Shown here one piece after another: positions 42,453 to 59,200 of a stretch of 64,000 nucleotides of DNA. Origin of the DNA: an uncultured Gemmatimonadales bacterium (GTDB lineage: Bacteria; Gemmatimonadota; Gemmatimonadetes; Gemmatimonadales; Gemmatimonadaceae); assembly GCA_963701965.1 (NCBI GenBank), contig OY969695.1:192001-256000 (forward strand), in the 5' to 3' direction. The position numbers were made by a program, and so were the translations under genes. The notes beneath the pieces were generated by a model. That model worked only from the letters and a program-made list of their open reading frames with translations, ran no database searches and was not told the origin of the DNA. The stretch's first letter is position 1, and each line of letters opens with the position of its first letter.

Positions 42453-42521
42453 ACCTAACGTTCGACATGAGCGGCGAGCCAAAGGGCGCGAAGCGGCCTT
42501 TGGAGCGTCCGCTCGATGGAG
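42453..42521 (-). repeat. attC truncated by IS110 remnant
   Basis: ACCTAAC GTTCGACATGAG...GTCCGCTCGATGGAG followed by IS end. Confidence 0.85.
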
Positions 42522-42593
42522 CAACTGTGTCTCAAGTCAAGTGCTCCTGGATGAAGTGAGAACCGCATCGATGCGCCAGGGTGCCTGATCGCG
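42522..42593 (-). mobile_element. 72-bp right-end remnant of the IS110 at 48684-49848
   Basis: One mismatch to 48684-48755. Confidence 0.9.
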
Positions 42594-45212: not shown

Positions 45213-45290
45213 GCCTAACGTTCGGCACGAGCGGCGGCGCAAAGGGCGCGAAGCGGGCTTTGCAACGTCCGCTCGACGGAGGGGTTAGAG
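45213..45290 (-). repeat. attC (both cores intact)
   Basis: GCCTAAC...GTTAGAG, 78 bp. Confidence 0.9.
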
Positions 45291-45752: not shown

Positions 45753-45831
45753 ACCTAACGTTCGACATGAGCGGCAGCTGGAGGCAGGCAAACCCTGGCG
45801 GAAGCGGTCCCGCTCGATGGAGGGATTAGCG
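45753..45831 (-). repeat. attC separated from its gene by IS110
   Basis: ACCTAAC...CGCTCGATGGAGGG ATTAGCG. Confidence 0.85.
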
Positions 45832-45832
45832 A

Positions 45833-47499
45833 AGTAATCGGCCTGCTGCCGCAAATCGCGCCGAAGAAACTCTGCGCGGCTTTGTTGTGGCAAGGTGGAA
45901 TGCGGCGCTGCGGAAGACCGATGTGGCAGTGGTGCGTACTGCCCGCGGATTAGCGTGGTCCTGGGTGACGTCATCGACATTGGTGAACCGGCTCGACGGT
46001 TTGCAGCCGCCGGGTCGGTATCCCGTTTGAGAGAATGAGCAAGACGACGTACCCGATGCGGCGCCACATTCCACAACGGATGATGGAGCAAGCCATGGCC
46101 GGACGCAACGCAAGAGTCAGCCCCAAGCCGGATAAGTCCCGAGCAGCCCTGACGATCACCCACCCCAATGCCGCCGGAATCGACATCGACAGCGCGTCCC
46201 ACTTCGTGGCCGTACCGCCGGACCGGGACGACGAACCCGTGCGCGAGTTCCCAAGCTTCACGGTCGATCTCAACGCCCTGGCCGATTGGCTCGACGCCTG
46301 CGGCGTCGATACCGTTGCGATGGAATCGACCGACGTGTACTGGATCCCTCTGTTCGAGCTGCTGGAGTCGCGCGGCTTCACCGTGCTGCTGGTCAACGCT
46401 CGCCACGTCAAGAACGTCTCCGGGCGCAAGTCCGACGTGCTGGACTGCCAGTGGCTGCAGCAGCTCATGACCTACGGCCTGCTCAGTGGGGCGTTTCGTC
46501 CGGCCGAGCAGATCTGCGTCCTGCGCTGCCTGTACCGCCAACGCGAGATGCTGCTAAAGAGCCAGGCCCGTCATGTCCAGCACATGCAAAAGGCGCTCAC
46601 GCAGATGAACACCCAGCTGACCAATGTCCTGGCCGACATCGTCGGCGCCACGGGGCAGAAGATCTTGCGCGCCATCGTCGCCGGCGAGCGCGACGGCGCT
46701 ACGCTGGGCGCGCTCAAGAATGTGCGCGTTCATGCCAGCGCCGACGAGATCGCCAAGAGCTTGCAGGGCAACTGGCGCGCAGAGCACCTGTTTGCACTCA
46801 AGCAGGCGCTGGCACTGTTCGACTTCATCGGCACGCAGCTCAGCGAGTGCGACGGCGAGATCGAAGCCCAACTGCAGAGCCTGCGCACTCACGATGGCGA
46901 TCCCGCCAAAGGCAAGAAGCGCAGCCGCTCGCGTAACGCCCCGAAGTTCGATCTGCGCGTGCAGCTGTTCCAGATGTGCGGTGTCGACCTCACCCGTATC
47001 GACGGCGTCGACGTCACCACGGCGCTGGCGGTGGTCTCGGAGATCGGCGTGGACATGGCACGCTTCCCCACCGTCAAGCACTTCACCTCCTGGCTGGGCC
47101 TGTGCCCGGGTACCAAGATCACCGGCGGCAAGGTGATGAGCGGCAAGACCAAGCGAGTCGTCAATCGCGCTGCGCAGGCCCTGCGCCTGGCCGCCGCCGC
47201 GCTGCGCAGCAGCAAGTCAGCGCTCGGCGCGTATTTCAGAAGGCTCTGCTCGCGCATGGACAAGCCCAAGGCCGTCACCGCCGCCGCACACAAAATCGCT
47301 CGGCTCATCTACTTGATGCTGACCAAAGGCCAGGAGTACACCGATCAAGGCCAGGACTACTACGAGCAACGCTACCGCGAGCGCGTCCTGCGCGCCCTAT
47401 CTCAGCGCGCCGCCAAGCTCGGTATGAAGATGGTCGCCATCGAGCAACCCGCCTGAAATCCACCCTCCAAATCAATCACTTGGAACGAGTTTCTTGAGA
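45833..47499 (+). mobile_element. IS110 family element (long type), GA core inferred
   Basis: GA at both junctions (45831-32, 47500-01); ~260-bp structured non-coding left end. Confidence 0.8.
46095..47456 (+). CDS. IS110 family transposase/recombinase
   Basis: AAGIDID, VAMEST, RKSDVLDC, SWLGLCP. Confidence 0.92.
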   Translation: MAGRNARVSPKPDKSRAALTITHPNAAGIDIDSASHFVAVPPDRDDEPVREFPSFTVDLNALADWLDACGVDTVAMESTDVYWIPLFELLESRGFTVLLVNARHVKNVSGRKSDVLDCQWLQQLMTYGLLSGAFRPAEQICVLRCLYRQREMLLKSQARHVQHMQKALTQMNTQLTNVLADIVGATGQKILRAIVAGERDGATLGALKNVRVHASADEIAKSLQGNWRAEHLFALKQALALFDFIGTQLSECDGEIEAQLQSLRTHDGDPAKGKKRSRSRNAPKFDLRVQLFQMCGVDLTRIDGVDVTTALAVVSEIGVDMARFPTVKHFTSWLGLCPGTKITGGKVMSGKTKRVVNRAAQALRLAAAALRSSKSALGAYFRRLCSRMDKPKAVTAAAHKIARLIYLMLTKGQEYTDQGQDYYEQRYRERVLRALSQRAAKLGMKMVAIEQPA

Positions 47500-47501
47500 G
47501 A

Positions 47502-47925
47502 CGCCAGCATGCCAGAGCCTGATACGAGCCTGCCGCAAAGCGAACCAGCCCGTAGAGACTGCAAGCGTGACGCCTGCGGCGGCCTCGAACCAGATGGTGA
47601 AGTTCATCGCAAGCGTGTGCTCAGAGCAGAGAGCCAGCGTGTAGTGCGCAAGCCCGTCGAGTCCAAACGCTCCATAAGCGGCGAAGAAGAGTGCGGCCGT
47701 TGTGCGCCAACCTGCCGCAACAAGAACGGCGCCGATGATGCCGACGCCGGTGATCATCAGCCAGGCGAGATAGACCTTTTCCCTTGTGAGCCAGGTTGGC
47801 ATGTTCGGATAGAAAGCGATGTATTCCGCGTTGTGGCTGAAGTGAGCGAGGCTCGCGACGCCATACAGCGCGAGCACCGGCCACACGTGGCTTGGCAAAT
47901 GCAACGAGCCGGGAAGCTCCTTCAC
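47502..47925 (-). CDS. Hypothetical membrane protein (3' end cut by IS110)
   Basis: HFSHNAE, YPNMP; four TM segments. Confidence 0.7.
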
Positions 47926-48614: not shown

Positions 48615-48683
48615 CTCTAGCGTTCGACATGAGCGGCGGCCGCAGTCAAGTGCAGCTTGCCGAAGGACGTCCGCTCGATGGAG
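48615..48683 (-). repeat. attC split by IS110 (remainder at 49851-49859)
   Basis: CTCTAGC GTTCGACATGAG...CTCGATGGAG, then IS, then GAGTTAGGT. Confidence 0.9.
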
Positions 48684-48698
48684 CAACTGTGTCTCAAG

Positions 48699-49669
<971 letters not shown>

Positions 49670-49670
<1 letters not shown>

Positions 49671-49830
49671 CTACCCTTCCTTGCGAATGCATGTTCATCA
49701 TCGACAACTGTTCGGGCTACACGGTTGGATAAGAACGGGCCAATGCGTTGACCTAATGCTCCATCACGAGCTAGAACTCAGAGGGGTAACTGGTTTGGCG
49801 CATCGACCACGAAACTACGGCACTGCTGTG
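49670..49830 (-). ncRNA. Predicted bridge RNA (ends approximate)
   Basis: Four guide segments matching target and donor junctions in IS621 order. Confidence 0.8.
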
Positions 49831-49900
49831 CCTACTTCGGAAGATACAAGGAGTTAGGTCGCACCTCGGCTGCCGCGATACGCTCTTGCCCGTGTGGCTA

Positions 49901-50646: not shown

Positions 50647-51899
50647 GGGATCTTGCTCCGCTTTAGTTGACACATTGTTGTTAGGTCGTGCGTCGTTCGA
50701 AGGTAGCTGGCGGCGTGTGATCGAGAGACGAGTGCAGCCGCGTGTGGTTGTAGTACCGCAGGTAGGTGTGCAGAGTCTGCCTGAGCTCCTGGTCGCTGTC
50801 GAACCGCTTGCCCCAGAGGAACTCGCTCTTGAGTGAGTGGAAGAACGATTCCATGTGGGCGTTGTCGTTCATCTGACCGGGACGGTTCATGCTCTGCACG
50901 ATGCCGTGGCGGCGCAACGCCGCCTGGTAATCGAAGGCGCCGTACTCGATGCCGCGGTCGGTGTGGAAGATCAGGCCCGGCTCGGGTCGCCGCTTACGCA
51001 CAGCGTGCTGCAACGCTGTTCGGGTTAACTCGGCATCGCGTCTCTTGCTCAGGCTCCAGCCCACAAGCCTGCGTGAGTACTTGTCCATGACGACGGCCAT
51101 GTAGCGCCATTGCTGCCTGACGCGCAGGTAAGTGACGTCACCCACCCAGACTTGGTTGGTGTCTTGAAGCTGCAGGTGGCGCTGCCGGTTGGGGATGCGC
51201 TTGTAGAAGGCCTTCTGGCCCACCCTTCGGCGGCGATAGAGCCGCGCGCTGCGGCCCTGGATGTGTGCGCCGCGCATGAGCCTGGCGACCCGCCGGCGGC
51301 CGATTGATAAGCCCGCCTGCCGCATGGCTTGAGTCACCCGCGGACTGCCGTAGGTGTTCAAGCTGCTCGCGTGGACGCTGCGGATCTGCTCGGTGATGGC
51401 AGCGTCATCGACCTGGTGTTGGCTGGCTCCGCGTGCCTGCCAGGCGTAGAAGCCGGCCCGCGTTACGCCCAGCTGCCTGCACATCATCGCGAGGGGCCAC
51501 GCTTGCCGGTTTGTCCCGATGAAGGCGAAGACTTCGCCTTTCGTTCTGAGACAAACCGGATAGCTTTTTTTAGCAGGTCGTGCTCCATCTGCAGCTGCCG
51601 GTACTTGCCCTCGACTTCGCGCAGCCGCTGTAGCTCCGCTACAGCGGCTGCATCGAGCACCGGTGACTTGCCACTGAGCACGCCGTCTCTGACCTGCTTC
51701 CTCCACTTGGAGAGCATGAAGGGGTGGATGCACAGCGACTCGGCCACATCCTTGACGAGTACGCCGGGCTGCTCGCTCATGCGAACCGCGCGTAGCTTGA
51801 ACTCAAGCCCGTAGCGGTTGATCTTCTTCGGGCCAGGCATGCCCATTTGAGAACTCCTTCCGTTAGGTCAGAGTGTCAATCAAACCGGTGCAAGCTCCA
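50647..51899 (-). mobile_element. IS3 family element inserted in an attC
   Basis: 27-bp imperfect IRs; orfA from 51846, A7G slippery site 51564-51571; orfB WVGDVTY, HTDRG, DNAHMESFF. Confidence 0.93.
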
Positions 51900-53972: not shown

Positions 53973-53982
53973 GAGCGATAAG

Positions 53983-53998
53983 CTGTATATTTATCCAG
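53983..53998. promoter_or_regulatory. LexA (SOS) box
   Basis: CTGTATATTTATCCAG = CTG-N10-CAG with AT-rich spacer in a GC-rich context; TTGACT -35 at 53961. Confidence 0.85.
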
Positions 53999-54000
53999 TA

Positions 54001-55930
54001 GTGCGCCGGGAGGCCGGCAAGGAGTAGAGGGGTGAGAGTCCCCGACGACCAAGACGTAGCGAGTCATGTTGTCCCCGAGTCATGCGCAGCGCATCGCGAG
54101 GTGTGCGGCGAAGCGTTGACAGGGGTGCGTGTAGGCCAGCCATTGAGCCACGAAATGTTTATTCAGACCCGGGTGCCGACGCCGTTACTGTGGCGGAAGG
54201 CAACACGCGCGGGCGCGCCATCGCAAGTGCCCGTGCGACCCGGCGGGGTCAGAGACCCTGGCATGCACGTACGCTCCTTGCACGGGAACCGGGAGATCTG
54301 CGAACCGACCAAGCGCTGGAGCGATCCGGTGGAGGTCCGCGTCGGGAAGGCGAGGAGCCGAAGCCGATGATGAACGGGACGCAGAAGTCAGACTCGCCCA
54401 TAGTAGCGATGAAGCCGGCGAACAAACCCGAACGCCTGATGGCAGGGGCGGGTGCGGAGTCGGTGGAGCCAAGGGGCGGGGCCAAGGGGAACGCGGACCA
54501 GTCACGCACGTGCCGGACGCAGGGCCGGGAAAGCGTGTTCCAGAGGCTGGATCGCGTGCGCCAAGCCGCAAGGCAGAGGAAGAAGGAGAAGTTCACCGCG
54601 CTGATGCACCTTGTCGATGTCGAACTGCTCAGAGAGTCGTACTTCTGGCTACAGCGGAAGGCGGCCGCCGGGGTGGATGGCGTCACATGGCAACAGTACG
54701 GCGAAGGCCTCGAAGAACGGCTCGAGCAACTGCACGGGCGCATCCACCGCAACGCCTACCTGGCGACGCCGTCCCGGCGCCAGTACATCCCCAAAGCAGA
54801 CGGTCGCATGCGGCCGCTGGGGATCGCGGCGCTCGAAGACAAGATCGTCCAGCGGGCGCTGGTGGAAGTGCTCAACGCGGTCTATGAGCAAGACTTCTTG
54901 GGCTTCTCGTACGGGTTCAGGCCGCAACGCAGCCAGCATCAAGCGCTGGACGCGTTGGCGGTTGGCATCACGCGTACCAATGTGAGCTGGATCGTGGACG
55001 CCGACATCAAGAGCTTCTTCGACGCGGTCAGCCACGCGTGGTTGATCAAGTTCCTGGAGCACCGAATCGGCGACCCACGCATCATTCGCCTCATAGGCAA
55101 ATGGCTGAAGGCCGGCACGCTGGAAGAAGGCAAGCTGGTGGCAAGCGAGGAGGGCACGCCGCAAGGCGCGGTCATCTCGCCGCTGCTGGCCAACATCTAC
55201 CTGCACTACGTCTTCGATCTCTGGGCACATCAATGGCGCCAGCGCCATGCTCGGGGCAACGTGGTGATCGTGCGCTACGCCGACGATATCGTGGTCGGCG
55301 TGGACAAGGAGTCGGATGCCACGCGCTTCGTGCAGGCGATGCGATCGAGACTGGAGCAGTTCAAGCTAACGCTGCATCCCGAAAAGACCCAGGTGATCCG
55401 GTTCGGCCGCTTCGCGGCGGCCAACCGGGCCAAGCGAGGTCTGGGCAAACCGCAGACGTTCGACTTCCTCGGGTTCACGCACATCAGCGGGCACGACCGA
55501 CGCGGCAAGTTCTTGCTGCAGCGGATCACCCGGCGCGACCGGATGGTTGCTACGCTGAAGCGGATCAAGGAAGAGTTGCGGCGGCGTTGGCACATCTCGG
55601 TCCACGAGCAAGGGAAGTGGCTGCGCAAGGTGGTGCAGGGTTACTTCGGCTACCACGCCGTGCCCGGCAACTACCCGCGCATGAAGGCGTTCCGAAACCA
55701 CGTCACCGACCTCTGGCGAAAGGCGCTGCGGCGCCGGGGCCAGCGGGATCGGACGACGTGGAAGAAGGCGTTCCGGTTGGCCGCGGAGTGGTTGCCCCGA
55801 GCTCGTGTCCTTCACCCCTGGCCGAACCAGCGCTTCGACGCCACCCACCCAAGGCAGGAGCCCGGTGCGCGAATCGTGCACGCCGGGATCTGTGCGGGGG
55901 GCGCCCGGTAACGGGTGGCCCTATCGCGAT
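54001..55930 (+). mobile_element. Group II intron (IIB-like), full length
   Basis: 5' GTGCG; domain V GAGCCCGGTGCGCGAATCGTGCACGCCGGGATC at 55858; 3' AT. Confidence 0.92.
54367..55911 (+). CDS. ltrA: Group II intron reverse transcriptase/maturase, no HNH domain
   Basis: RPLGI, SYGFRP, GTPQG..ISPLLANIYL, RYADD, FDFLGF. Confidence 0.95.
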   Translation: MMNGTQKSDSPIVAMKPANKPERLMAGAGAESVEPRGGAKGNADQSRTCRTQGRESVFQRLDRVRQAARQRKKEKFTALMHLVDVELLRESYFWLQRKAAAGVDGVTWQQYGEGLEERLEQLHGRIHRNAYLATPSRRQYIPKADGRMRPLGIAALEDKIVQRALVEVLNAVYEQDFLGFSYGFRPQRSQHQALDALAVGITRTNVSWIVDADIKSFFDAVSHAWLIKFLEHRIGDPRIIRLIGKWLKAGTLEEGKLVASEEGTPQGAVISPLLANIYLHYVFDLWAHQWRQRHARGNVVIVRYADDIVVGVDKESDATRFVQAMRSRLEQFKLTLHPEKTQVIRFGRFAAANRAKRGLGKPQTFDFLGFTHISGHDRRGKFLLQRITRRDRMVATLKRIKEELRRRWHISVHEQGKWLRKVVQGYFGYHAVPGNYPRMKAFRNHVTDLWRKALRRRGQRDRTTWKKAFRLAAEWLPRARVLHPWPNQRFDATHPRQEPGARIVHAGICAGGAR

Positions 55931-55947
55931 TCAATTCGGGAGTGCAA

Positions 55948-56229
55948 GTGGACAACGCCAGCGGCCGCGTCGAGGCTGAATGTGGACGATCGGCGCCGTT
56001 TCGGTTGCTCGATGCCTTGCGCGAGCGCCTGCGGTACATGCACTACAGCTTACGGACCGAGGAAGCCTATGTCCATTGGGTGCGCGGCTTCGTACGGTGG
56101 TCGGGTCGACGCCATCCGCGCGACATGGGTGCGGCGGAGGTGCGCGATTTCCTGACCATGCTGGCGAGCGAGCGGCGCGTCGCCGCGGCCGCGCACCGGC
56201 AAGCCCTCAGCGCGCTGCTGTTCCTCTAG
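55948..56229 (+). pseudogene. intI: Integron integrase, N-terminal domain only
   Basis: [51 protein letters not shown] then stop. Confidence 0.92.
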
Positions 56230-59200
56230 TGCTACCGCGCTACGCCGAGCTTCACTGTCGCAGCAACTTCAGCTTCCTGACGGGCGCGTCGCATCCCGAG
56301 GAGCTGGTCGAGCGCGCCGCCGCGCTCGGCTACGGCGCGATCGCGATCACCGACGAGTGCTCGCTCGCCGGCGTCGTGCGCGCGCACGTCGAGGCGCAGG
56401 CGCAAAAGCTGCCGCTCGTCATCGGCAGCGAGATCCGCCTCACCGATGCCGAGACCGGCGCGCCGCATGCGCGTCTGGTGCTGCTGGCGCAGTCGCGGCG
56501 CGGCTATGGCAACCTCGCCCACTGGATCACAGTCGCGCGTCGTCGAGTCGAGAAGGGCCACTACCGCGCCCATCCGGGCGACGTCGAAGGCAAGGTGCCC
56601 AATGCGCCGATGCTCGCCGGCCTCGGCGGCTGCTTCGCCTTGCTCGTGCCCGCGGCTTCGCAGGATCCTGCCGAGATCCTGGCCCACGCGACTTGGCTCA
56701 AGAGCTGGTTCCAGGAGCGTGCGGCGATCGCCATCGAGCTGCTCCATCGCGCCGCCGACGACGATCTCGTCGACCACGTCACCGAGGTCGCGGCGCGCAC
56801 CGGCCTGCCGATCGTCGCCGCCGGCGACGTGCTGATGCACGTGCGCTCGCGAAAGCCCCTGCAGGACACGCTGACGGCGACGCGCCTCGCCAAGTCGGTG
56901 GCCGAGTGCGGCCTCGCGCTCGAGCCCAACGCCGAGCAGCACCTGCGCTCGAAGAGCCGCCTGGCCGCGCTCTACGAGCCGGCGTGGCTCGAGCAGACGA
57001 TGGCGATCGTCGCGGACTGCAAGTTCTCGCTCAGCGAGCTGAAGTACGAGTACCCGCAGGAGATCGTGCCGCCGGGCGAGACGCCGGCGTCGCAGCTGCG
57101 AAAGCTCACCTACGCGGGCGCGCTGAAGCGCTTCCCGCAGGGCCTGCCCGACGAGCACCGCGCGACGATCGAGCACGAACTCGGAGTCATCGCCGAGCTG
57201 CAGTACGAGTCGTACTTCCTCACCGTCGCCGACATCGTCGACTGGGCGCGCGAGAAGAATATCCTGTGCCAGGGCCGCGGCAGCGCCGCCAACTCGCTGG
57301 TTTGCTACTGCCTGCACGTCACCGAGGTCGACCCGCGCCGCGCCAGCCTGCTGTTCGGCCGCTTCATCAGCGTCGAGCGCAAGGAGCCGCCCGACATCGA
57401 CATCGACTTCGAGCACCAGCGGCGCGAGGAGGTGATCCAGTACATCTACGGCAAGTACGGCCGGCACCGCGCCGCGCTCGCCGCGGTGGTAATCAGCTAC
57501 CGGCCGCGCTCGGCGCTGCGCGACGTCGGCCGCGCCCTCGGCATCGACCTGCAGCGGATCGAGGCGGTGTCGAAGAGCCAGCACTGGTTCGACGGCCGCG
57601 GCATCGCGCCCGAGCGGCTGCGCGAGAACGGCTTCGATCCGGAATCTCCGGTGGTCCAGCTCTGGATGGAGCTCACCGGCCAGCTGATCGGCTTCCCGCG
57701 CCACCTCTCGCAGCATCCGGGCGGCTTCGTCATCGGCAAGAACCAGATCGAGGAGCTGGTGCCGATCGAGAACGCGGCGATGGAAGACCGGAGCGTCATC
57801 CAGTGGGACAAGGACGACCTCGAATCGCTTGGGTTGCTGAAGGTCGACATCCTCGCCATCGGCATGCTGAGCGCGATCCGCCGCTCGCTCGAGTACATCG
57901 GCACCAAGCTCGGCCGCACGCCGCTCATGATGCAGGAGATCGGCGAGGGCGACGTGCCGACCTACGACATGATCTGCAAGGCCGACACCGTCGGCGTGTT
58001 CCAGATCGAGAGCCGGGCGCAGATGAGCATGCTGCCGCGCCTGAAGCCGCGCTGCTACTACGACCTAGTGGTCGAGGTGGCGATCGTCCGGCCGGGGCCG
58101 ATCCAGGGCGGCATGGTTCATCCGTACCTGAAGAACCGCACGCTCGCCGACCGCGAGATCGACTGTCCCGAGGAGCTCAAGCCGGCGCTGCTGCGAACCA
58201 AGGGCGTGCCGATCTTCCAGGAGCAGGTGATGCAGATCGCCATGCTCGCCGCCGACTTCACCGCCGGCGAGGCCGATGCGCTGCGCCGCGCGATGGCGGC
58301 GTGGAAGCGGCGCGGCGGCCTGTCGCCGTTCCACAAGCGGCTGGTGGGCCGGATGGTCGAGAAGGGCTACACGCGCGAATACGCCGAGCGCATCTTCAAG
58401 CAGATCCAGGGCTTCGGCGAATACGGCTTTCCGGAAAGCCACGCCGCCGGCTTCGCGCTGCTCGCCTACGTCAGCAGCTGGATCAAGTGCCACCATCCCG
58501 ACGCCTTCCTCTGCGGCCTGCTCAACGCCCAGCCGATGGGCTTCTACGCGCCGGCGCAGCTGGTGCGCGATGCGCGCGAGCACGGCGTCGAGGTGCTGCC
58601 GGTCGACGTCGCGGTGAGCGACTGGGAAAGCACGATGGCGGGCGAGGGCAGCGCGAGCGCCGGGGCCGGCCCGCTCGGCCAGGGTGGCGCCGCAGCAGCC
58701 GGTCCGGCTCGGCCTCAACCGCGTCAAGGGGCTCGCCGAAGAGGCCGGCCGGCGCGTCGTCGCTGCGCGCGCCGAGGCGGCCTTCGTCAGCGTCGAAGAC
58801 CTGGCGCGGCGCGCCCTCCTCGACGCCCATGCCCTGGCGGTGCTCGCCGAATCGGGGGCACTGCAGGCGCTCACCGGCCATCGCTACCAGGCGGCGTGGG
58901 CGGTGGCGGGAATCGACACCCGGCCGACCGAGATGCTGCGCGCGACGCGTAGCCACGAAACCGGCGTGGCGCTGGCCGCGCCGAGCGAGGGCGAGGAAAC
59001 GCTCGCCGACTACCGCGCCCTCGGACTGACGCTGCAACGCCATCCGCTCGCCCTGCTGCGGCCGCAGCTCGCCGCCTTCCGCATCGAGCCGGCGGCGCGC
59101 TTGCGCACTTTTCCGAACGGCCGGCTGGCGCGTGCGAGCGGCCTGGTGACGCACCGGCAGCGGCCCGAGACGGCCAAGGGAACGGTCTTCGTCACGCTCG

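What the first reader, a model, noticed from the sequence alone, without database searches (positions are those of the whole stretch)
45823..47510. Second IS110 with apparent guide RNA matching the attC core box
Seen: with a GA core the empty site is GGATTAGC-GA-CGCCAGC, at the outer edge of an attC. The non-coding left end contains GGATTAGCG (45947-45955, exact match to the left target) and GGTGACGTC (45964-45972, 7 of 9 complementary to the right target), enclosed by the stem ACCGATGT/ACATTGGT. It also contains TTGAGAGAA (46027-46035, exact match to the circle junction). No clear right donor guide was found. Inference: a bridge-like RNA of different architecture in a long-type IS110. It may target attC ends or have met a variant site by chance.
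Basis: partly seen in the sequence, partly recalled or inferred. Interest (0 to 1): 0.7.

Follow-up and report, generated by a model that had tools for sequence, protein, structure and literature searches.

The report
Reverse-reading bridge RNA targets integron sites
This jumping gene sits in a docking site of the host's gene-cassette array and carries a predicted two-loop guide RNA whose guides change in step with the insertion site across relatives; the RNA likely reads its DNA target in the opposite direction to the best-studied example, IS621, and this particular copy is probably inactive.

Summary
The core is AG (45828-29 / 47499-500), not GA. The left-flank guide GGATTAG covaries with the flank (133 of 145 positions over 29 different guides; shuffled 51). 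The donor guide TTGAGAG equals the right end in 117 of 120 elements. The proposed right guide GGTGACGTC does not covary (291 vs 295 shuffled); it is the closing stem of the donor loop. The real right-flank guide lies upstream (45920-27; 60 of 116 vs 31). The RNA is an IS621-like two-loop bridge, but its guides come in IS1111 order, so it likely cuts at CT on the opposite strand. The clade targets the attC R'' box (27 of 32 flanks in eight genomes; 37 of 60 single loci), where the right guide matches poorly, so something beyond seven bases seems to steer it. This copy has private G32D and G80D changes and is probably dead. The scan reported such an element once before on other DNA (e1-9558318). 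Verdict: new variant of a known system.

The parts
45753..45829 (-). attC site of the upstream cassette (cassette genes on minus strand); IS sits in its R'' box, L boxes and R' intact
   Evidence: sequence; (same layout as neighbouring attCs at 45288, 48008)
45823..45827 (+). left target GGATT (variant of the usual attC GGGTT)
45828..45829 (+). left core AG (CT on the minus strand)
45830..47498 (+). IS110 body (1673 nt with both cores); one full copy in the genome
45840..45893 (+). 5' hairpin of the left end, predicted
   Evidence: single-sequence fold only
45864..45872 (+). left arm of a short internal inverted repeat AAGAAACTC; partner GAGTTTCTT at 47487-47495
   Evidence: next two bases agree with the right arm in 86 of 104 elements parsed (106 examined)
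45904..46065 (+). predicted bridge RNA body closed by an outer stem (45904-11 with 46058-65)
   Evidence: all 8 outer pairs show two-sided changes
45916..45960 (+). target-binding loop, closed by GACCG/UGGUC, with inner hairpin UGGUGC...GCCCG
45920..45927 (+). true right-flank guide GATGTGG + C (complement of right flank and core G); predicts CCACATC, actual ACGCCAG, a poor match in this copy
45947..45953 (+). left-flank guide GGATTAG (structural equivalent of IS621's extended RTG, inferred)
45954..45955 (+). candidate handshake dinucleotide CG, equal to the first two bases of the left end
   Evidence: CG/CG 119, CC/CC 1, CA/CA 1, CA/CT 1, CG/TG 1 of 123; weak
46027..46033 (+). donor guide TTGAGAG = last 5 nt of the right end + core
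   Evidence: exact in 117 of 120, seven variants
46034..46035 (+). donor-loop handshake position, AA here, AG in 123 of 142 elements
46095..47456 (+). IS110 recombinase, 453 aa from Met 46095: D30 E77 D114 D117, Thr343 at IS621's Ser241 position, private G32D (46189) and G80D (46333)
47499..47500 (+). right core AG
47501..47925 (-). upstream cassette ORF (no Pfam hit); insertion removed its stop codon, it now ends at 47476 inside the IS right end

Best explanation
This is an IS110-family insertion sequence with an AG core, sitting in the R'' box of an attC site, whose left end is predicted to encode a two-loop bridge RNA that likely guides a recombinase tetramer to join the element's circle to the target while reading the DNA on the opposite strand relative to IS621. 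Shown: ends and core, guide-flank covariation for the left flank, right flank and right end, the covarying RNA fold, and the attC preference of the clade. Inferred from IS621: circle formation, cleavage 3' of the minus-strand CT by the Thr343 loop, and the role of the two dinucleotides after the guides as handshake guides. In each loop the complement of the right flank comes first and the copy of the left flank ending in AG second, followed by two handshake bases and UG; that is IS621's LTG-RTG-HSG order if the minus strand is the cleaved 'top' strand. Specificity rests mostly on seven bases; at attC sites the second guide matches poorly, so the attC context probably contributes. This copy is probably inactive.
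For: Left guide 133 of 145 vs 51.5 +/- 6.0, 0 of 20000 shuffles. Right-flank guide 60 of 116 over 29 distinct guides vs 30.9 +/- 4.8, 0 of 20000. Donor guide 117 of 120. Fold: 95.4% of cells paired, 17 of 26 pairs with two-sided changes, 0 of 500 shuffles on all five measures, slid controls 33-54%; partner swap of the donor stem -489 vs -425 +/- 8 kcal, 0 of 20000. IS621 layout, G63 core reading and S241 from PMC11208158 passages; alignment to 8wt6 puts T343 on S241 and G80 on the EATG glycine; model matches IS621, E 3.5e-10. attC marker in 26 of 29 left flanks in six multi-copy genomes, plus 1 of 1 (G444) and 0 of 2 (G449), and 37 of 60 single loci, against 3 of 54 and 1 of 142 matching 7-mers outside the array in the host genome. 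G32 and G80 are Asp in none of 143 and 147 aligned relatives, nor in the 96% relative.
Against: No RNA or circle was observed. No covarying guide for the donor's left end was found (only a near-constant AUCG). Handshake covariation rests on a handful of distant elements, several disagree (e.g. CA/CT; L030, L179, L189 by eye), and the left-end finder was trained on CG starts. In attC-inserted elements the right guide matches position 1 in only 11% (35 sites), and in this copy 1 of the first 4. 23 of 60 single loci with xGGTT guides lack the attC marker. Shuffles ignore relatedness.
Confidence: 0.75

Rival explanations
1. Same RNA-guided element and AG core, but no real inversion of the machinery: the plus strand is cut first as in IS621 and the loop order simply differs.
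For: Order of matches is known to differ between groups (PMC11187229); strand of first cleavage cannot be read from sequence.
Against: The core is the exact reverse complement of CT; both 3' guides end in AG plus two extra bases plus UG as IS621's RTG/HSG do; the core-reading glycine is invariant.
Confidence: 0.15
2. attC preference comes only from the 7-nt guide plus survival: insertions elsewhere are purged or the element hops locally within arrays; the attC fold plays no part.
For: 23 of 60 single loci and both G449 copies are not in attC; copies cluster within arrays; R'' insertion leaves most of the attC and the gene intact.
Against: G438 has 155 GGGTTAG sites and 4 of 4 insertions at attC; G446 53 sites and 3 of 3; G435 42 sites and 4 of 4; this copy hit the only attC among the genome's 40 GGATTAG sites.
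Confidence: 0.45
3. One reading: GA core, GGTGACGTC as right-target guide, one large loop of new architecture.
Against: Ends of relatives, stop-codon restoration, no covariation (291 vs 294.6), 50% chance rate, stem not conserved; my model is lower in energy in 59 of 64 sequences.
Confidence: 0.03

Closest known systems
IS621 bridge recombinase (PMC11208160, PMC11208158; PDB 8wt6)
   Same: DEDD + Tnp domains, upstream non-coding end, two pseudo-symmetric loops each with two guides around an inner hairpin, dinucleotide core, handshake-like bases.
   Different: 453 aa vs about 328; core AG vs CT; guide order reversed; 7-nt main guide with only about 3 covarying bases in the second; Thr for Ser241; outer stem joins both loops; 17% identity.
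ISPpu9 (PMC12288879, passages and section 14)
   Same: AG core shown on sequenced circles, long structured 5' region, short right box; its 43-bp A box equals the distance from AG to the end of AAGAAAC here (end point chosen by me).
   Different: Targets REP sequences; its guides are not mapped in the passages I read. Sequence relationship not tested: no ISPpu9 sequence was obtained.
IS1111-attC group (ISKpn4, ISPst6, ISPa21, ISPa25; PMC11187229, PMC3001079, PMC13604230 passages)
   Same: RNA-guided, attC-targeting, antisense to the cassettes, top-strand match 5' of bottom-strand match, TG allowed in place of SG.
   Different: Their RNA is downstream of a 330-350 aa transposase and ISKpn4 inserts at AA*CG about 11 nt inside the site; this clade has an upstream RNA, 453 aa, and inserts after GTTAG in R''.
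Group IIC-attC introns (PMC3001079 passages)
   Same: Insert into the attC bottom strand, opposite to cassette transcription.
   Different: Retro-element, unrelated chemistry.

Membership tests
IS110 family | DEDD RuvC domain plus PF02371 domain | tested here: met
   (NF033542, 281 bits over 140 cut-off)
IS110 family | G--P----S(T)G catalytic loop | tested here: met
   GLCPGTKITGG; Thr in 119 and Ser in 27 of 147, Thr 110 / Ser 7 of 120; TG is described for IS1111
IS110 group (IS621-like layout) | long non-coding end upstream of the gene, short right end | tested here: met
   265 nt upstream, 42 nt downstream
IS110 group (IS621-like layout) | bottom-strand match 5' of top-strand match in the RNA | tested here: not met
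   order is reversed (vs 108)
Bridge RNA | two loops, target and donor guides covarying with flanks and ends | tested here: met
   three of four guides covary, fold covaries
Bridge RNA | second donor guide | tested here: inconclusive
   AUCG 45973-76 complements CGA of the left end, shifted by one, no clear covariation
Bridge RNA | RNA expressed and bound by the recombinase; circular intermediate | not testable with these tools
   only assembled contigs were listed; no read-level RNA test was obtained. L065 shows an RE-AG-LE junction
IS1111-attC group | RNA downstream of a 330-350 aa transposase | tested here: not met
   upstream RNA, 453 aa
IS1111-attC group | insertion point inside the L'' region (ISKpn4 AA*CG) | tested here: not met
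   insertion after GTTAG in R''
IS1111-attC group | sub-terminal inverted repeats close to both ends | tested here: inconclusive
   a covarying 9-bp inverted repeat exists but lies about 35 nt inside the left end and 3 nt inside the right
ISPpu9-like elements | AG core at both ends | tested here: met
   vs 16
ISPpu9-like elements | transposase and A/B box sequence similarity to ISPpu9 | not tested
   no ISPpu9 sequence fetched; figure and supplement sequences not seen

The most novel reading that the evidence does not exclude
A large, uncharacterised branch of IS110 bridge recombinases binds DNA in the reverse orientation, cuts with a threonine, and has an attC-specialised clade in which the second target guide is relaxed and the folded attC hairpin supplies the missing specificity: a bridge recombinase that reads DNA structure as well as sequence, forming a third, independent line of integron parasites that rides inside cassettes.
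Probability: 0.3. Interest if true: 0.72.

Novelty: new variant of a known kind. Interest (0 to 1): 0.5.

Why it matters
It gives a complete, covariation-backed guide map for the long AG-core IS110s (the kind to which ISPpu9 may belong), a widespread group (7806 proteins at E <= 1e-100 among 7998 scored) whose guides I did not find mapped in the papers searched. It adds an attC-targeting lineage independent of IS1111-attC elements, with a different insertion point that keeps the attC nearly whole and places the IS inside the cassette. It makes two questions testable: whether bridge recombinases can work in inverted polarity with a threonine nucleophile, and whether target structure can replace a guide.

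Tried and rejected
GA core: rejected. GGTGACGTC as right guide: rejected. A hairpin CGUGGUC/GGUGACG that I first proposed: dropped, alignment folding gives GACCG/UGGUC instead. Covariation of the donor-loop 3' segment (GAGCAAG/GAGCTAG) with the left end: inconsistent. G>A hypermutation or sequencing artefact as source of the GGATTAG guide: private changes are 14, 3 of them G>A, within the range of other elements. Threonine as a novelty in itself: TG is already noted for IS1111. My attC hairpin scorer was noisy (score >=12 in 15 of 54 background sites; a first version found nothing), so I used the GA..G marker of the L'' box, which is a proxy; the strict pattern undercounts attCs (0 in G439). 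Rfam: no family over the element. Viral contigs gave 2 distant loci. E. coli genome search gave no ISfinder name; cluster look-up gave none. Tetu and Holmes 2008 is not held and Post and Hall 2009 was not seen. Rows dropped: 22 of 166 matched loci had no parsable target loop; L065 and L125 (element-to-element junctions) were left out; only loci with both parts entered each count.

Full report
Setting. The element lies in an array of gene cassettes read on the minus strand, with attC sites such as those ending at 45288, 45829 and 48008. The integrase is a truncated remnant. The gene is an IS110 recombinase, present once in full in the genome. I gathered relatives from genomes (79 loci), metagenomes (79), viral contigs (2), genome samples, 15 genomes searched for further copies and plasmids.

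Ends and core. Right ends of relatives read TTTCTT(G/A)AGAG and then vary; left ends read AG-CG(A/T)AGTAATC. The shared dinucleotide is AG: 45828-29 and 47499-500. Contigs of close soil relatives stop at 47500. The AG empty site gives the upstream cassette gene an in-frame stop in the R'' box (142 aa), the GA site reads through.

Guides. Of 166 matched loci 144 had a parsable target loop. Left ends were found with a profile that does not use the guide. Over 109 distinct sites the nine RNA bases ending in AG match the left flank at 11, 18, 77, 94, 94, 99, 98, 100, 100%; one site per distinct guide gives 133 of 145 against 51.5 +/- 6.0, 0 of 20000 shuffles. The donor guide equals the last seven bases of the right end in 117 of 120, through seven variants. 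The real right-flank guide is the variable segment just 5' of CANTGGTG: among non-GGTT elements it predicts the flank at 60 of 116 positions against 30.9 +/- 4.8, 0 of 20000, mainly the first three bases (59, 66, 55%); examples are AACTAAC/AACTGAC, CGATTTC/CGATTTG, CTACTTC/CTACTTT. Registers shifted by one or two also score above shuffles in that group (9 and 1 of 4000). No covarying guide for the donor's left end was found. These shuffles do not correct for kinship, though one site per guide was used and the tree shows repeated retargeting from a GGGTT background.

Fold. On 64 non-redundant sequences (chosen from 141) RNAalifold finds the outer stem, the stem GACCG/UGGUC closing the first loop and matching inner hairpins in both loops. 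It did not find the donor closing stem, which I named by eye: GGGUGACGUC with GACGUACCC. The four-helix model is 95.4% paired with 17 of 26 pairs changed on both sides, 0 of 500 shuffles on all measures (the inner hairpin there was written one register off the RNAalifold one); partner swapping supports the donor stem.

Mechanism. In IS621 each loop has a 5' guide for the bottom strand, an inner stem-loop, a 3' guide for the cleaved top strand that covers the CT core, then two handshake bases; G63 reads the core T and S241 forms the DNA adduct (PMC11208158 passages; PMC11208160 passages and section 12). Here the 5' guide complements the right flank and the 3' guide copies the left flank, ends in AG and is followed by two bases that equal the start of the left end. 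That is IS621's plan with the minus strand as top strand (inference). It is also the order reported for IS1111 seekRNAs and said to be reversed in IS110-type elements (PMC11187229 passages and section 6). An AG crossover is established for ISPpu9 circles (PMC12288879 passages and section 14). The model matches IS621; Thr343 aligns with Ser241 and is Thr in 119 of 147 relatives, including the clade with identical multi-copy elements, so Thr probably works; TG at this place is already noted for IS1111.

attC targeting. In six genomes with several copies 26 of 29 left flanks carry the attC L'' marker, always with the AG of GTTAG as core; G444 adds 1 of 1 and G449 0 of 2 (two G437 flanks are duplicates of one attC). 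Single loci with xGGTT guides: 37 of 60. Background in the host genome outside the array: 3 of 54 GGGTTAG, 1 of 36 GGATTAG, 1 of 142 other xGGTTAG. Those genomes hold 37 to 155 GGGTTAG sites each. Right flanks of identical copies differ freely and at attC the right guide matches its first base in 11% of 35 sites. So seven bases plus a weak second guide do not explain the preference; attC structure, local hopping or selection must add to it, and I cannot separate these. The nearest relatives (85-86% DNA identity) have GGGTTAG; this copy's guide and its site both have A, which fits a retuned guide finding a variant attC, although GGGTT and AGGTT guides also enter GGATT sites. Insertion replaces only the outer two bases of R'' and puts the IS inside the upstream cassette, so IntI could in principle move it (inference).

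State of this copy. G32D and G80D flank the catalytic D30 and E77 and occur in none of the relatives; G80 corresponds to IS621's core-reading glycine. With the changed handshake base and single copy, it is probably dead.

Novelty. Full-text searches for IS110 + bridge RNA + attC, IS110/attC/integron/IS1111, threonine/S241, IS110 in attC sites, AG core (no papers) and bridge orthologues, showed only IS1111-attC elements and group IIC introns as attC invaders (passages) and no guide map for AG-core elements. Limits: most subscription papers, ISfinder, Tetu and Holmes 2008 and Post and Hall 2009 were not seen; Durrant's figure of six diverse RNAs is seen only as a legend; a 2026 preprint built 86 bridge-RNA models from 181,180 IS110-adjacent sequences (sections 8 and 37 and passages) and may include this family in supplements I could not see. 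Of PMC13626964 I saw the abstract and outline; of 10.1101/2024.06.21.599552 and 10.64898/2026.08.14.744561 passages. Verdict: real, a new variant of a known RNA-guided system; interest 0.5.

Noticed in passing
window 48682-49851 and 42524-42593: A second, shorter IS110 (frameshifted, gene on the minus strand) sits in another attC at an AG 7 nt further inside the site, in the opposite orientation, so its own strand reads CT; an 88-nt remnant of its end lies at the attC near 42510. Two IS110 types use minus-strand CT cores of the same attC family from opposite directions.
   Followed up: partly
window 53982-56232: A LexA-box-like motif (motif recalled), then a group II intron (RT 54082-55911, RF02005), then a truncated intI N-terminus (56005-56232) running into dnaE-type polymerase sequence; no full intI in the genome. 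The array is an integron with a broken integrase.
   Followed up: partly
L112, L114, L127, L138, L164 right junctions; L125: An extra AG follows the core before the guide-matched flank. Uninterrupted copies of the L112/L114 target lack it (2 of 2 in 401 genomes; internal repeats), so it is probably added during insertion; L125 has an RE-AG-AG-LE tandem junction. 19 of 112 right flanks start with AG, some natively.
   Followed up: partly
L176, L177: Relatives with guide TTCTTAG / CCCCC insert just after what looks like group II intron domain V (motif recalled).
   Followed up: no
G442 (L233-L238): A 64% relative with the same GGATTAG guide targets the repeat GTAGGGCGGATTAG (5 of 7 left flanks), the same kind of REP that ISPa11 targets at another position.
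   Followed up: no
L250, L254, L273, L287: Distant relatives carry target guides equal to the right ends of sister elements (TTGAGAG, TTAAGAG, TTAGGAG) and form tandem stacks.
   Followed up: no
L012, L023, L024, L112, L119, L121, L129: A sub-clade retargeted to an unidentified repeated motif CCAAYGRGGTDTGAG-YCTGA.
   Followed up: partly
window 50681-51846: IS3-family element inside the array.
   Followed up: no
G000:C1:79293-79883: A rearranged fragment of a more distant relative (about 55-64% identity) elsewhere in the host genome, retaining a donor loop.
   Followed up: no
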